This document shows positions 1,293-6,867 of a stretch of DNA of 12,578 nucleotides, piece by piece. The translations under genes were made by a program, and so were the position numbers. Source of the DNA: an uncultured archaeon (GTDB lineage: Archaea > Asgardarchaeota > Thorarchaeia > Thorarchaeales > Thorarchaeaceae); NCBI GenBank assembly GCA_964610875.1, contig CAZSWP010000065.1:1-12578 (forward strand), given 5' to 3'. Every line of letters starts with the position of its first letter. Position 1 is the stretch's first letter. The notes under the pieces are model-generated. The model had not been told where the DNA came from. It saw only the letters and a program-made list of their open reading frames with translations, and searched no databases.

Positions 1293-2393
1293 ATGAAGGA
1301 TGTGGATGAAGCAGCTGTCTATCGTAATTTGCAAAAACACCTTGATAGCATGCCAGTGGGATTCCCAGCAACCGAGTCTGGCGTTGAGATTCGCATACTT
1401 GAACGATTGTTCACACCACAGGAAGCTCTAATTGCCACACATCTGACTTATTCTTGGACCCCCTCTGAAAGCATTGATGAGATTTATCCGCGATTAGAAC
1501 ATACTGGTATCTCTAGGCGGGAATTGGAAGCTTCTCTTGATATCATGGCTAGTAAAGGACTAATCTTCCGCAAAAAGGGAGAAAGCACTACATATTACGG
1601 TAATGTTCAGTGGGTCATTGGGATCTATGAGTTCCAAGTGAATAAAATGACAGCAGAACTCTACTCCGATATTGTGGACTACAACATGGAAGCATTTGGC
1701 AAAGAGTTATTCTATACTCCATTACCCCAACTTCGAATAATCCCCGTTGGAAAGAGCATAGAGCATACACATATGATTGCTGCATATGACAACATTAGAG
1801 AATTATTGGCCAAAGCCACAGGTCCCTTTATGGTTGCAAACTGTATCTGCCGACAAGCAATGGATGCAGTTGATAATCCATGTAAAGCAACTGATAGACG
1901 AGAAACCTGCATTGCATTTGGCGAGCATGCGCAGATGTATATTGATGAAGACTGGGGTAGAGAGGTAACTAAGGACGAATTAATCGACATCCTTCAACAG
2001 AATGAAGAAGATGGTCTTGTCCTACAACCAAGCAATGCAAGGTCTCTTGACTTCATTTGTAGCTGTTGTGGGTGCTGCTGCGGTATTCTTTTTGGATCGA
2101 AGATGTCTCGGAAACCGGTCAAGTTCTATTCCACCAATTATTTCGCGGAAGTAGACTCTGAACTCTGTACACTATGTGGGACGTGTGTAGAAAAGTGTCA
2201 GATGGAGGCCATTTCACTTGGAGATGATTCAGCAGTTATCGATTTGAATCGGTGTATTGGATGTGGTGTTTGTGTGGCTAACTGTCCTTCAGATGCTATG
2301 ACACTACAAAAGAAAGAAGGAGTGAAAGTCCCACCTAAAACCTCCGAAGAGCTGTATTCAATATTGTTAGAGAAGAAGCAAGAACAAAAATAG
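1293..2393 (+). CDS. Multi-[4Fe-4S] cluster protein (N-terminal wHTH-like region, Cys-rich core, C-terminal 2x[4Fe-4S] ferredoxin domain)
   Basis: Two ferredoxin motifs, CTLCGTCVEKC and CIGCGVCVANCP, plus CICRQ and ICSCCGCCCGIL motifs typical of a widespread anaerobe '4Fe-4S binding protein' family. Confidence 0.9.
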   Translation: MKDVDEAAVYRNLQKHLDSMPVGFPATESGVEIRILERLFTPQEALIATHLTYSWTPSESIDEIYPRLEHTGISRRELEASLDIMASKGLIFRKKGESTTYYGNVQWVIGIYEFQVNKMTAELYSDIVDYNMEAFGKELFYTPLPQLRIIPVGKSIEHTHMIAAYDNIRELLAKATGPFMVANCICRQAMDAVDNPCKATDRRETCIAFGEHAQMYIDEDWGREVTKDELIDILQQNEEDGLVLQPSNARSLDFICSCCGCCCGILFGSKMSRKPVKFYSTNYFAEVDSELCTLCGTCVEKCQMEAISLGDDSAVIDLNRCIGCGVCVANCPSDAMTLQKKEGVKVPPKTSEELYSILLEKKQEQK

Positions 2394-2439
2394 TTGACTT
2401 GGATTATGACAAGAAATGGTGCGCTCGCCGGGACTTGAA

Positions 2440-2471
2440 TTCCCGACCACGTTCGAGAATTGAACGCAGTT
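2440..2471 (-). other. tRNA-Gly intron 2 (32 nt, position 53/54 at the T loop), BHB motif
   Basis: Interrupts CCGGG|TTCAAGT. 9-bp stem ACTGCGTTC/GAACGTGGT, bulges GG|A and AA|T. Central helix CCCG/CGGG is complete only after intron 1 removal. Confidence 0.88.
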
Positions 2472-2476
2472 CCCGG

Positions 2477-2506
2477 TTCCCGACCATATCCGGATTGGAT
2501 ATGATT
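2477..2506 (-). other. tRNA-Gly intron 1 (30 nt, variable loop/T-stem junction, about 48/49), relaxed BHB (HBh') motif
   Basis: Central helix TCCG/CGGG, bulges GC|A and AA|C, 9-bp intron stem ATCATATCC/GGATATGGT. No outer helix. Confidence 0.85.
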
Positions 2507-2579
2507 GCCGGATCCGTGGCAGGGATCCATCATAGCCCCTAGACAACGAGCGCGTGTGGAATTGTTCGAATAGGTGAGC

Positions 2580-2596
2580 GTTAAAAAGTTTGCCGA
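2580..2596 (-). promoter_or_regulatory. Putative BRE/TATA promoter of tRNA-Gly
   Basis: Minus strand reads CGGCAAACTTTTTAAC, with a TTTTTAA box about 28-34 nt upstream of the mature tRNA 5' end. Confidence 0.5.
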
Positions 2597-2675
2597 ACAA
2601 CCAGAGTTTCATTTCATAGATACAGTTGGAGAATATGGGAAACAATAAACTGCAATAGAATATATCTCAGGAACC

Positions 2676-3710
2676 ATGGAGCGAGTTACTTGGATTGACA
2701 TTTCAAAAGCACTTGGCATCTTCTTTGTCATCACAGTGCATGCTATTATTCCTGCAATCAATCCCATAACCATTCATCTGAGTAGCTTTACAATCCCCTT
2801 GTTCTTCTTTATCACAGGGCTTACCTATAGTAATGAGAAGTATCGTGATTCTATCAGTCAATACATCATCAGGCGTGGTAGACGGCTAATGATTCCATAT
2901 TTTCTGCTCTATCTACTGATGATACTGCTTTTCATTCCCTTAGCTGGACTTATTGATACATATCTCACTCCGGACCAACTCATTTTTTGGCTACTATATG
3001 GTGCAGGTCCTCCCGATTCCTCGACTCATCTCTGGTTCCTTCAAGTTTTATTTTTCGGACTTTCTCTCTTTGTAATAATTGACCATTATCTCATAGGTAG
3101 GAGTCGAATTTGGAAAGGTATATTGCCGCCTGTACTTGCTACGGGTACCTTTGTTCTTGATGTACTATTTCAAGAAAGCCTTGTACCATGGAGGCTTGGG
3201 AGTGTTCTTCTCGCAACTGCATTCATTCTAATTGGCAATGAAACACGTTACATCTTTGAAAGATGCGAATGGACGATTCCAGTTCGAGAGTCGTTGATTG
3301 GGATTATCCTTCTCTCTATCACCCTCGTTCTACTCTCTACGATCAATGGTTTTACAGATATGGCTGTAGATAATTATGGGTATAATATTGGTCTATATCT
3401 TGTAAATGGTACACTTGGGTCCGTTCTCATCATATTTTTTGCTAGTCTTCTTTCAAGGGTTTCAAAAATCAATGACATCATGACTCCTATTGGCAATCAC
3501 ACGCAGGAGATTTACGAACTCCACCCTCTTCCTTTTCTGTTGGCTCCTTTCATCATTACCAGCGTACTTGGCGACTCTTTCTACGAACCACTATTATGGG
3601 TTGTAAGATTCACACTCAGTATTCTCATAATCATCCCCCTGGCTGTCTATCTCGTACGGAAGAGTCGATTAGCTCGTTTCATCCTTCGCGGATCATTTGA
3701 AGAGGATTGA
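2676..3710 (+). CDS. Acyltransferase family 3 (OafA/NolL-like integral membrane O-acyltransferase)
   Basis: Motifs RVTWIDISKALGIFFVITVH, FTIPLFFFITG, RRLMIPY and LWFL, with about 10 hydrophobic helices. Confidence 0.9.
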   Translation: MERVTWIDISKALGIFFVITVHAIIPAINPITIHLSSFTIPLFFFITGLTYSNEKYRDSISQYIIRRGRRLMIPYFLLYLLMILLFIPLAGLIDTYLTPDQLIFWLLYGAGPPDSSTHLWFLQVLFFGLSLFVIIDHYLIGRSRIWKGILPPVLATGTFVLDVLFQESLVPWRLGSVLLATAFILIGNETRYIFERCEWTIPVRESLIGIILLSITLVLLSTINGFTDMAVDNYGYNIGLYLVNGTLGSVLIIFFASLLSRVSKINDIMTPIGNHTQEIYELHPLPFLLAPFIITSVLGDSFYEPLLWVVRFTLSILIIIPLAVYLVRKSRLARFILRGSFEED

Positions 3711-3718
3711 ACACAGAA

Positions 3719-4798
3719 CTAACTTAAAATTAGTCCTGCTCGTTTCTTGATTAAAAGGGCTCTGAAAGTTGACTCATACTCAATACATTTCTCGCCTCTA
3801 TCTCTTTCATCATAACCCATATACGCACCTCCTACCCAGTATCCATCCATTTTTTCTAAGAGCCAACTCCGAGGAAATAGGTAAGTCCCCTTGGATGTTC
3901 TGAATTGCTCCAAGTATTCCATGTTATCCTTGAACCACTTACTTTCCCTTGCTCTTTTGAATGGAGCAAACATCTCAAGATTGAGAAGTAATTCAGCAAA
4001 ACAACGTCCTTCAGAATGTTTCCGATATCCTGGCAGTGTCACTGCCCATCCCACCACATAGTATCTATCTCCATACCATGCAACACCATAACTTGGTGGG
4101 AGACTCTGATATCTCTCAGTCAGAATCATCTCCACAATCCTCTCTAATTGTACTCTCAACTTCTCAGTATTCATTATTGATTCCAATGAACCAAGACCCC
4201 GAATATCGTGAATCCAAGGTAGCTGGAACTCTTTGTCCGGTTGTAACTCAGGATTGATAATTTGATGATGTTTCAAAGAGGGATGATTTGGAAGACCAAA
4301 TTCCTCTCTATTCACATATATTTCATCATAATTTGGTGCTCTGGCAAACTTGTAGAGTGCATCCAATCTAGAATAAAGAAATTGGATGACTGATTCAACA
4401 GCATCGTATCCTGCATATGCTAAGAAAGAAGCAACAATGGTGCGATGAAAAACAGCATGAGCAACTCCTGAAGGAACATCAAAATTCTCGCTTAACCATA
4501 CCCGAAATGGGAGTGTCTTGTTATCAAACGGTTGCAACCCTGCACGTAGACCCAGTTGTACTAGGTTTCCCATTGTGTTCTCATATGCTTCAGGTTTGCC
4601 AACATGAACCGCTTGAAATTTCGTATTTGGTTGAAGAAAGGATAACCACTTCTTCACATCAGATGAATTATTTAGGTCTCTGAGTGCACGACCAACTCTT
4701 CCTACATCTTGCTCTTCTATGATGTCGACCAATGTACGATACCGAATAATAGGGCCTGCATTTCTCACAAGCCATTCAGGTAGGTCTTCAATCTCCAT
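3719..4798 (-). CDS. Hypothetical soluble protein
   Basis: 359-aa ORF with ATG start, convergent with the acyltransferase and divergent from pyrE. Trp/Tyr-rich and helical in character. Function not recognised. Confidence 0.8.
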   Translation of the reverse strand: MEIEDLPEWLVRNAGPIIRYRTLVDIIEEQDVGRVGRALRDLNNSSDVKKWLSFLQPNTKFQAVHVGKPEAYENTMGNLVQLGLRAGLQPFDNKTLPFRVWLSENFDVPSGVAHAVFHRTIVASFLAYAGYDAVESVIQFLYSRLDALYKFARAPNYDEIYVNREEFGLPNHPSLKHHQIINPELQPDKEFQLPWIHDIRGLGSLESIMNTEKLRVQLERIVEMILTERYQSLPPSYGVAWYGDRYYVVGWAVTLPGYRKHSEGRCFAELLLNLEMFAPFKRARESKWFKDNMEYLEQFRTSKGTYLFPRSWLLEKMDGYWVGGAYMGYDERDRGEKCIEYESTFRALLIKKRAGLILS

Positions 4799-6177: not shown

Positions 6178-6651
6178 ATGCCATATAATTACGATATCAT
6201 GAGCGTCCATAAGAAGACCCTCGATAATATGCTGCGACTTGCATTGACCACAACTGGCTCTCACTATCAATACTACCATAATGCAGCTATGAATATCGAG
6301 CACCCAAAAATCAAGGCACTCCTGATGGTCTTAGCGGAAACTGAATCTGATTTGATGGAAAAGATCAACCATATGATTGCAACAGGTGTGTTGGATGAGA
6401 TTATAGAGCTCGGTGACATGGGTCCCCTCGAAGACCCTGATGAGCTGCCATTCGACCTTACACGAGAAGACTCGGATCCCCGTATCTATGTTTGCAACAA
6501 AGCTCTTCAAAAAGAACTGAAAGGTTATGGCTTCTTCCTCTCTATTGCTGCCAGAGCCAAAGCGGAGCTGATAAGCAGAATCTTTGAATATCTAGCTCAT
6601 ATAAAACTCGAACAGATTCGTAGAATTCGTCGAGTCTGTGAGACCTTCTGA
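6178..6651 (+). CDS. Ferritin-like/rubrerythrin-fold protein with degenerate diiron ligands (paralog 2)
   Basis: LRLAL...HYQYY..AA...EHPKIKALLMVLAETE and ALQKELKGYGFF...IFEYLA match the rubrerythrin helix repeats. Shares a linker motif with the upstream gene. Confidence 0.75.
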   Translation: MPYNYDIMSVHKKTLDNMLRLALTTTGSHYQYYHNAAMNIEHPKIKALLMVLAETESDLMEKINHMIATGVLDEIIELGDMGPLEDPDELPFDLTREDSDPRIYVCNKALQKELKGYGFFLSIAARAKAELISRIFEYLAHIKLEQIRRIRRVCETF

Positions 6652-6789: not shown

Positions 6790-6867
6790 GCGACCGGGAG
6801 GTCGTCTAGACGTCATATCCTCCATCTGTTCCATCGGAAATGATGGGGTTGGAGGGTTTATTGGCGT
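6790..6867 (+). ncRNA. Candidate structured RNA / 5' leader (two GNRA-capped hairpins)
   Basis: GCGACC-GGGA-GGTCGT hairpin, followed by a three-segment hairpin ACGTCA/TGGCGT, TCCTCCA/TGGAGGG, TTCCATCG-GAAA-TGATGGGG with several G-U pairs. Begins about 25 nt after a TATA box. Confidence 0.45.

What the first reader, a model, noticed from the sequence alone, without database searches (positions are those of the whole stretch)
2440..2510. Two tRNA introns around a 5-nt micro-exon with apparent ordered splicing
Seen: the introns at about 48/49 and 53/54 are separated only by CCGGG (2472-2476). In the primary transcript the central helix of intron 2 would be ACCG/CGGG (A-G mismatch). After intron 1 is removed it becomes CCCG/CGGG and gains outer pairs (G-U, G-C), giving a full bulge-helix-bulge. 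Intron 1 has only a relaxed HBh' motif. Established: multi-intron tRNAs with sequential BHB formation are known mainly from Thermoproteales and need broad-specificity EndA types. Inference: ordered splicing in a probable Asgard lineage, in a gene that standard tRNA scanners may miss.
Basis: partly seen in the sequence, partly recalled or inferred. Interest (0 to 1): 0.75.

Follow-up and report, generated by a model that had tools for sequence, protein, structure and literature searches.

The report
Two-intron glycine tRNA gene, Thorarchaeota
This is a real glycine tRNA gene of an Asgard (Thorarchaeota-like) archaeon, cut by two small enzyme-spliced introns that leave a five-base exon between them; the layout is a known kind, and the proposed fixed order of intron removal is plausible but unproven.

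Summary
Observation confirmed. On the minus strand, 2553..2417 encodes the only tRNA-Gly(GCC) found in this 3.75 Mb Thorarchaeota-like assembly. It reads exon 1 (47 nt), intron 1 (30 nt, 48/49), micro-exon CCGGG (2476..2472), intron 2 (32 nt, 53/54), exon 3 (23 nt with CCA).

ARAGORN and the Rfam tRNA model miss the gene. Splicing by coordinates gives a canonical 75-nt tRNA. At least 15 related genomes hold an uninterrupted gene reading CGGC-CCGGG-TTC(A/G)A across the site, which is the predicted junctions.

Fourteen orthologues carry both introns and none of about 50 loci inspected carries only one. Compensatory changes support the intron hairpins. The genome has a two-subunit EndA with the broad-specificity loop, and RtcB.

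Ordered splicing is partly supported. Intron 2's central helix is complete only after exon 1 is ligated, in all 14 genomes, and folding models favour intron 1 first. However, the same outer mismatch occurs in introns that have no upstream intron to repair it, and no RNA data exist. The order is therefore a likely preference, not a shown requirement.

The two introns look like copies of each other. Multi-intron Asgard tRNAs and nested BHB splicing are published. This scan already reported the three-intron orthologue in another genome (e1-5585957).

The parts
2507..2553 (-). Exon 1 of tRNA-Gly(GCC): acceptor 5' strand, D-arm, anticodon arm (anticodon GCC) and 4-nt variable loop, ending CGGC
   Evidence: It is identical or near-identical to the 5' 47 nt of uninterrupted orthologues.
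2477..2506 (-). Intron 1 (30 nt, position 48/49), an HBh' motif: H is TCCG/CGGG, the bulges are GC|A and AA|C, h' is a 9-bp hairpin, and there is no outer helix
   Evidence: One search gives the anatomy. In one search, 8 of 9 h' pairs show compensatory change and H pairs in 14/14 sequences. RNAalifold predicts the same H, bulge and h'.
2472..2476 (-). Micro-exon CCGGG, the 5' strand of the T-stem (49-53)
   Evidence: It pairs with CCCGG (61-65) in the spliced cloverleaf. It is invariant in 14 orthologues and sits at the same place in uninterrupted genes.
2440..2471 (-). Intron 2 (32 nt, position 53/54). h' is a 9-bp hairpin. H is ACCG/CGGG (3 bp plus A.G) in the primary transcript and CCCG/CGGG after intron 1 is removed. 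The bulges are GG|A and AA|T.
   Evidence: column pair 63-98 never pairs in 14/14 sequences and 2 of 9 h' pairs are compensatory. Modelled P(BHB2) rises from 1e-4 to 0.32 after removal of intron 1.
2417..2439 (-). Exon 3: T-loop TTCAAGT, T-stem 3' strand, acceptor 3' strand, discriminator A and encoded CCA
   Evidence: matches at 115-137 in relatives.
2581..2592 (-). Probable promoter (BRE/TATA-like CAAACTTTTTAA), about 28-39 nt upstream of the mature 5' end
   Evidence: Read from the sequence. The same CAAACTTTTTAAC block lies upstream of orthologues. This is an inference and no promoter test was run.
2411..2416 (-). T-rich tract (TTTCTT) directly after CCA, a probable terminator
   Evidence: All orthologues have a T/C-rich tract at this place. 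Inference.

Best explanation
A functional, single-copy tRNA-Gly(GCC) gene is interrupted by two paralogous bulge-helix-bulge introns, at 48/49 and 53/54, that flank a 5-nt exon.

The precursor is cut by the genome's (alpha-beta)2 EndA, which carries the CSL/L1 loop, and is rejoined by RtcB.

The two splicing motifs overlap. The last intron-1 base and the first micro-exon base (A63/C64 in alignment A1) lie in intron 1's 3' bulge and also in the 5' strand of intron 2's central helix. The two motifs therefore cannot be presented at the same time.

Intron 1's HBh' motif is available in the primary transcript. Ligating exon 1 to the micro-exon then supplies C48, G46 and G45, which complete intron 2's hBHBh' motif. 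The preferred path is therefore intron 1 first, then intron 2. This would also keep the 5-nt exon covalently attached throughout.

Shown here: the gene, the junctions, the motifs, the covariation and the enzymes. Inferred: that splicing happens, its order, and the benefit for the micro-exon.
For: - In-silico splicing gives a 75-nt tRNA-Gly(GCC). Variants with one intron removed, or with the micro-exon skipped, give nothing.
- Uninterrupted orthologues read ...GGATCCGGC CCGGG TTC(A/G)A..., are 74/75 identical to the spliced product, and are called tRNA-Gly(GCC) by ARAGORN.
- The neighbouring acyltransferase gene is the same next to interrupted and uninterrupted alleles, so these are orthologous loci.
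- Covariation: 8/9 (intron 1) and 2/9 (intron 2) h' pairs changed on both sides, 95% of cells pair, and 0/500 shuffles reach this.
- Enzymes: the EndA alpha subunit has Tyr/His/Lys and aligns without a gap over the A. pernix CSL, including Lys44 (3P1Z_B, E 1.7e-44). A beta paralogue has lost the His. RtcB is present.
- Order, window gene: P(BHB1|primary) = 0.008, P(BHB2|primary) = 1e-4, P(BHB2|after intron 1) = 0.32, P(BHB1|after intron 2) = 5e-5.
- Order, orthologues: P(BHB2) rises in 14/14 after intron 1 is removed, 100- to 2700-fold, and P(BHB1) falls in 14/14 after intron 2 is removed.
- RNAalifold on the primary transcripts forms intron 1's H, bulge and h', but only the hairpin of intron 2.
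- Only one Gly(GCC) gene was found in the 95%-complete assembly.
Against: - No RNA data: no RNA run holds this sequence, so neither splicing nor its order is observed.
- The outer-pair mismatch is not a barrier in this lineage. Met(CAT), Ala(GGC) and Ser(TGA) introns of the same genome have the same x||| helix and at most two outer-helix pairs (Met and Ala none), with no upstream intron. The same holds for the D-arm intron in 6/7 orthologues.
- Modelled P(BHB) of single-intron controls spans 3e-4 to 0.4. The 1e-4 for intron 2 in the primary transcript is low but close to that range.
- In 2 of 14 orthologues (G085, G020), P(BHB2|primary) exceeds P(BHB1|primary).
- The purine at the last position of intron 1 (A in 8, G in 6) is also the rule for intron 2 itself, so it is not specific evidence of selection for a mismatch.
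- Nearest-neighbour folding ignores EndA binding, tertiary tRNA structure and co-transcriptional effects.
Confidence: 0.6

Rival explanations
1. The gene and introns are the same, but there is no fixed order. The broad-specificity EndA cuts each relaxed motif independently, so either intron may go first and the apparent dependency is a by-product of two introns lying 5 nt apart.
For: Single introns with the same 3-bp-plus-mismatch H and no outer helix exist in this genome and in the orthologues' D-arm. The EndA has the CSL/L1 loop, which Kaneta 2018 (PMC5829648) associates with cleavage of relaxed motifs. Control introns have modelled P(BHB) as low as 3e-4. Two orthologues model intron 2 as the slightly more available one.
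Against: The two motifs share bases A63/C64, so they cannot both be formed at once. Modelling makes the intron-2-first path unfavourable at both steps in 12/14 genomes, and P(BHB1) falls after intron 2 removal in 14/14. In C. merolae, order followed BHB stability even for independent motifs (PMC3728597).
Confidence: 0.3
2. It is a pseudogene or decaying copy: the inserts are not removed and the RNA is not a working tRNA.
For: No expression data. Aberrant relatives exist: L016 has an altered anticodon loop and a shortened intron 1, and L018 breaks off inside intron 1.
Against: It is the only Gly(GCC) gene found in a 95%-complete assembly, and GGC/GGU codons need it. Exons are 100% (exon 1) and 94% (exon 3) conserved over 14 genomes whose flanks are about 57% alike. 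The intron helices are kept by compensatory change. A conserved promoter-like block and an encoded CCA are present.
Confidence: 0.04
3. The two introns and the micro-exon are handled as one unit. The 5' site of intron 1 pairs with the 3' site of intron 2, which has an identical GGTCGGGAA end, so the whole 67 nt is excised.
For: Both introns end in the same 10 nt, and TCCG can pair with either CGGG.
Against: The product lacks the T-stem 5' strand and is not a tRNA (skip_e2). The modelled probability of that motif is 4e-10 or less. Uninterrupted orthologues keep CCGGG.
Confidence: 0.01

Closest known systems
[quoted passage not shown] 2024, PMC11291895; Goswami et al. 2026 preprint, 10.64898/2026.10.13.758758)
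   Same: An Asgard genome with several short non-canonical BHB-type introns per tRNA gene. T-arm insertions have strong motifs. Standard annotators miss the genes. A two-paralogue (alpha-beta)2 EndA is present. Intron positions differ between related lineages, consistent with repeated gains.
   Different: Those papers centre on Atabeyarchaeia and Jordiarchaeia/Freyrarchaeaceae, and the preprint text does not name a Thor lineage. I found no mention there of micro-exons or splicing order. [quoted passage not shown]
'Nested' multi-intron pre-tRNAs of Thermoproteales (Sugahara et al. 2007, 2008, as cited in Soma et al. 2013, PMC3728597)
   Same: There are two or three BHB introns per tRNA, and the last intron's motif is completed only after another intron has been processed. 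A broad-specificity (alpha-beta)2 EndA does the cutting.
   Different: The phylum differs (Asgard, probably mesophilic microbial mat). Here a relaxed motif for the second intron already exists before the first is removed, so dependency is a matter of degree. I could not read the primary papers.
Ordered BHB processing in Cyanidioschyzon merolae nuclear pre-tRNAs (Soma et al. 2013, PMC3728597)
   Same: Multiple ectopic introns, including in the T-arm. The order of removal correlates with the calculated stability of each BHB.
   Different: That organism is a eukaryote with a different endonuclease make-up. Its motifs fold independently, and intermediates were actually observed by RT-PCR.
Intron transposition in Thermoproteales (Fujishima et al. 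2010, cited in PMC4090602 and PMC4033280)
   Same: Similar intron sequences occur at different positions, and the target must allow a BHB.
   Different: Here the two copies lie 5 nt apart in one gene, next to similar exon words (TCCGGC| and CCCGGG|), and are never found singly.

Membership tests
Archaeal EndA-spliced (BHB) tRNA intron | Removal of the insert restores a canonical cloverleaf tRNA | tested here: met
   only the doubly spliced form is called tRNA-Gly(GCC), 75 nt; natural uninterrupted orthologues are called the same.
Archaeal EndA-spliced (BHB) tRNA intron | Splice sites lie in two 3-nt bulges, 4 bp apart on opposite strands (hBHBh' or the relaxed HBh'/hBH) | tested here: met
   Intron 1 has H 4/4, h' 9 bp and h 0 (HBh'). 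Intron 2 has H 3/4, h' 9 bp and h 2 bp in the primary transcript, and H 4/4 after intron 1 removal.
Archaeal EndA-spliced (BHB) tRNA intron | Helices maintained in evolution | tested here: met
   10 pairs with changes on both sides, and slid controls pair in 26-42% of cells against 95%.
Archaeal EndA-spliced (BHB) tRNA intron | Host encodes a splicing endonuclease able to cut relaxed motifs, and an RtcB ligase | tested here: met
   alpha with catalytic Y/H/K and the CSL Lys44 equivalent; beta without His; RtcB, 588 bits.
Archaeal EndA-spliced (BHB) tRNA intron | Intron absent from the mature RNA | not testable with these tools
   No RNA run is listed for this sequence.
Nested / order-dependent multi-intron pre-tRNA | One intron's BHB can form only after another intron has been removed | tested here: inconclusive
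   The H outer pair and the h pairs use exon-1 bases only after ligation (14/14 sequences). Modelled P rises 100- to 2700-fold. However, a 3-bp H plus h' exists beforehand, and equally imperfect single introns occur in this genome.
Heavily interrupted Asgard tRNA genes | Asgard genome in which many tRNA genes carry non-canonical and multiple introns that annotators miss | tested here: met
   The nearest named relative is Ca. Thorarchaeota. ARAGORN and Rfam find only 35 tRNAs, many with introns. My motif census adds Met, Ala, Glu, Leu, Tyr, Ser and Gly genes with roughly 30-nt ectopic introns.

The most novel reading that the evidence does not exclude
The intron pair is an obligately co-inherited unit that arose by local duplication of one intron, and its overlapping motifs act as a ligation gate. 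The second cut becomes efficient only once exon 1 has been joined to the 5-nt exon, so the tiny exon is never set free. The unusually strong conservation of intron 2 (stem 92% against 71% for its paralogue) would reflect this extra role.
Probability: 0.3. Interest if true: 0.5.

Novelty: new member of a known kind. Interest (0 to 1): 0.3.

Why it matters
The gene supplies the only tRNA found in this assembly whose anticodon (GCC) reads GGC/GGU glycine codons, yet ARAGORN and the Rfam tRNA model miss it. Annotation of such genomes therefore under-counts tRNAs.

It extends the published picture of heavily interrupted Asgard tRNA genes to a Thorarchaeota-like family. In that family one gene carries introns at seven or more different positions in different genomes.

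It also offers a compact test case: two paralogous introns, a 5-nt exon and 14 natural sequence variants. With it one can ask whether overlapping BHB motifs impose a splicing order and protect micro-exons. That question has been raised for Thermoproteales and a red alga, and in the papers I could read it has been tested only in the alga.

Tried and rejected
- ARAGORN (with and without intron mode) and Rfam (gathering and E-value modes) on the raw window and genome find nothing at this site. tRNAscan-SE and SPLITS are not available here, so I wrote a SPLITS-like scan instead. It is noisy and incomplete; for example, it did not recover the four-intron Asn gene noted earlier.
- RNA evidence: no RNA holder is listed. 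Reads were laid on DNA contigs and only confirms the DNA arrangement.
- BLAST of the introns against the genome gave no significant paralogues, because the queries are too short.
- The exon-skipping reading is rejected.
- A single-intron reading, or shifted junctions, is rejected because no other cut restores CGGCCCGGGTTCAAG.
- Reading the purine at the end of intron 1 as selected to block intron 2 is rejected as unsupported, because intron 2 ends in a purine as well.
- Sugahara 2007 (PMC1852824) is not held, and a search for 'splicing order' returned nothing.

Full report
**What is there.** The feature lies on the minus strand. From 2553 down to 2417 the sequence reads as follows:

| Part | Coordinates | Length | Notes |
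|---|---|---|---|
| Exon 1 | 2553..2507 | 47 nt | ends CGGC |
| Intron 1 | 2506..2477 | 30 nt | position 48/49 |
| Micro-exon | 2476..2472 | 5 nt | CCGGG |
| Intron 2 | 2471..2440 | 32 nt | position 53/54 |
| Exon 3 | 2439..2417 | 23 nt | starts TTCAAG, ends with an encoded CCA |

ARAGORN and Rfam find no tRNA in the raw window. The Rfam tRNA model run over the whole genome also misses the site. When both stretches are removed by coordinates, ARAGORN calls a 75-nt tRNA-Gly(GCC) with a regular cloverleaf. Removing only one intron, or skipping the micro-exon, gives nothing.

**Anatomy of the motifs.** Each intron is built as one base, a 9-bp hairpin (h'), CGGG, then AA.
- Intron 1 has H = TCCG/CGGG (4 pairs, one of them G.U). 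Its bulges are GC|A and AA|C, and it has no outer helix, so it is a relaxed HBh' motif.
- Intron 2 in the primary transcript has H = ACCG/CGGG (an A.G mismatch plus 3 pairs). Its bulges are GG|A and AA|T, and it has two outer pairs.
- After intron 1 is removed, H of intron 2 becomes CCCG/CGGG with outer pairs G-U and G-C, which is a full hBHBh' motif.

The last base of intron 1 and the first base of the micro-exon belong to intron 1's 3' bulge and also to the 5' strand of intron 2's central helix. Both motifs therefore cannot be formed at once.

**Comparative evidence.** I searched 87 genomes of the same order with the 137-nt gene and read about 50 loci.
- At least 15 genomes have an uninterrupted gene that reads ...GGATCCGGC CCGGG TTC(A/G)A... 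Some of these are 74/75 identical to the in-silico spliced product, and ARAGORN calls them tRNA-Gly(GCC). This fixes the mature junctions independently of any motif.
- The same acyltransferase gene lies next to the tRNA in interrupted and uninterrupted genomes, so the loci are orthologous.
- Fourteen genomes carry both introns at the same two places, plus one aberrant copy (L016).
- Seven of the 14 add a third 30-nt intron in the D-arm.
- Other genomes carry introns at 37/38, in the D-loop, at about 41/42, or in the T-loop.
- No locus has only one of the 48/49 and 53/54 introns.

On the alignment of the 14 genes (A1), the named structure pairs in 95% of cells. Eight of 9 (intron 1) and 2 of 9 (intron 2) hairpin pairs changed on both sides. 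No shuffle out of 500 reaches this, and slid controls pair in only 26-42% of cells. The pair between intron 1's last base and the last G of intron 2's CGGG is never a standard pair in any of the 14 sequences (A in 8, G in 6).

**Host and enzymes.** The assembly is 3.75 Mb in 124 contigs with 40.7% GC. Its completeness is 95%. The nearest named relative of a window protein is a Candidatus Thorarchaeota MAG, and earlier notes of this scan say the same. The DNA comes from microbial-mat metagenomes.

Two EndA paralogues are present.
- A 191-aa alpha subunit has both Pfam domains and the Tyr/His/Lys triad. It aligns without a gap to the Aeropyrum pernix catalytic subunit over the crenarchaeal-specific loop, including the Lys44 equivalent.
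- A 207-aa beta subunit lacks the catalytic His.

This is the (alpha-beta)2 type with the L1 loop that Kaneta et al. 2018 already reported for Asgard archaea. RtcB is present. Only one Gly(GCC) gene was found. The ARAGORN 'Gly gcc' call on C3 is a two-intron Tyr(GTA) gene.

**Is the splicing ordered?** No RNA run holds this sequence, so I could only model it.

For the window's gene, the ensemble probabilities of each complete motif are:

| Motif and RNA state | Probability |
|---|---|
| Intron 1 motif, primary transcript | 0.008 |
| Intron 2 motif, primary transcript | 1e-4 |
| Intron 2 motif, after intron 1 is removed | 0.32 |
| Intron 1 motif, after intron 2 is removed | 5e-5 |

Across the 14 orthologues:
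- The rise for intron 2 after intron 1 removal occurs in 14/14, by 100- to 2700-fold.
- The fall for intron 1 after intron 2 removal occurs in 14/14.
- Intron 1 is the more available motif in the primary transcript in 12/14.

RNAalifold, run without any constraint, forms intron 1's H, bulge and h' but only the hairpin of intron 2. A motif that would skip the micro-exon is negligible (4e-10).

Several results argue against a strict requirement:
- Three single introns of this genome have the same outer-pair mismatch in H, with none (Met, Ala) or two (Ser) outer-helix pairs and nothing upstream to repair it: Met(CAT), Ala(GGC) and Ser(TGA).
- The D-arm intron of 6 of 7 orthologues has the same defect (sequences).
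- Modelled motif probabilities of single-intron controls range from 3e-4 to 0.4, so 1e-4 is low but not far outside that range.
- The purine at the end of intron 1 is not special, because intron 2 also ends in a purine.

My reading is that intron 1 first, then intron 2, is the likely preferred path (about 0.6). The enzyme type and the controls argue against an absolute block. A plausible benefit, which is an inference, follows from intron 2's motif needing bases of exon 1. The second cut would wait for the first ligation, so the 5-nt exon would never be released.

**Origin of the pair.** The two introns are 72% identical within a gene (61-81%, best cross-genome pair 84%). Unrelated introns of the same architecture average 52% and reach at most 63-70%. 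With the constrained ends left out, the figures are 67% against 49%. The two insertion sites are similar words (TCCGGC| and CCCGGG|). This points to a local duplication of one intron, in the sense of the intron transposition proposed for Thermoproteales.

Intron 2 is much better conserved than intron 1: stem arms are 92% against 71%, while the flanks are about 57% alike. I cannot explain this difference.

**What is known already.**
- Asgard tRNA genes with several non-canonical introns are published (Valentin-Alvarado 2024; Goswami 2026 preprint).
- Soma et al. 2013 cite Thermoproteales work for the idea that a last intron forms its BHB only after others are processed. They also showed order following BHB stability in a red alga.
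- This scan already described the three-intron orthologue of this very gene in another Thorarchaeota genome and reached the same reading: paralogous introns that always occur together, with a probable order (e1-5585957). I reached these points independently before reading that note.

The finding is therefore real and neatly documented, but it is a new member of a known kind.

**DNA check.** A Logan contig from a second sample of the same study covers 2300-2532 with no difference, so the arrangement is not an assembly artefact.

Noticed in passing
window 2440-2471 against 2477-2506 (alignment A1 columns 69-100 against 34-63): Intron 2 is much more conserved than its paralogue intron 1 across 14 genomes. 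Stem arms are 92% against 71% mean pairwise identity, while the 3' flanks are about 57% alike. It also keeps an invariant tandem U.G/G.U in its stem. I have no explanation.
   Followed up: partly
L009-L011, L013-L015, L017; L035, L038-L054 (orthologous tRNA-Gly(GCC) loci): The same tRNA gene carries introns at seven or more different positions in different genomes of one family: D-arm 14/15, D-loop, 37/38, about 41/42, 48/49+53/54, and T-loop about 59/60. Alleles are mixed within genera. The 48/49+53/54 pair is never split.
   Followed up: partly
G000 C10:49482-49588, C9:19390-19496, C3:41861-41978: tRNA-Met(CAT), tRNA-Ala(GGC) and tRNA-Ser(TGA) each carry one 30-32-nt ectopic intron. In each, the central helix has a mismatch at the outer pair; Met and Ala have no outer helix and Ser has two outer pairs. 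ARAGORN miscalls the Met gene as Val(tac).
   Followed up: partly
G000 C3:71668-71763: tRNA-Gly(CCC) has a 19-nt intron at 53/54 that ends CGGGAA like intron 2 here. As spliced, its T-stem would hold an A52.C62 mismatch.
   Followed up: no
G000 C3:139002-139137: ARAGORN calls this Gly(gcc) with an intron. The motif census reads it as tRNA-Tyr(GTA) with a 28-nt D-arm intron plus a canonical 31-nt intron.
   Followed up: partly
L016 (G042:C10) and L018 (G059:C344): These are aberrant copies of the two-intron gene. L016 has anticodon loop CTCTCAC, a 26-nt intron 1 and no recognisable 5' exon. L018 breaks off 13 nt into intron 1. They are pseudogenes or assembly breaks.
   Followed up: no
window 3707-3740 and 6827-6855: Strong hairpins (12-bp and 9-bp stems) lie in intergenic gaps, between convergent ORFs at about 3710/3719 and between ORFs at 6651/6880. 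They fit the loose BHB filter but are more likely terminators.
   Followed up: no
window 2198-2533 (-) and 2367-2645 (-): Two mechanical ORFs of 111 and 92 aa overlap the tRNA gene. A gene caller could wrongly annotate them as proteins.
   Followed up: no
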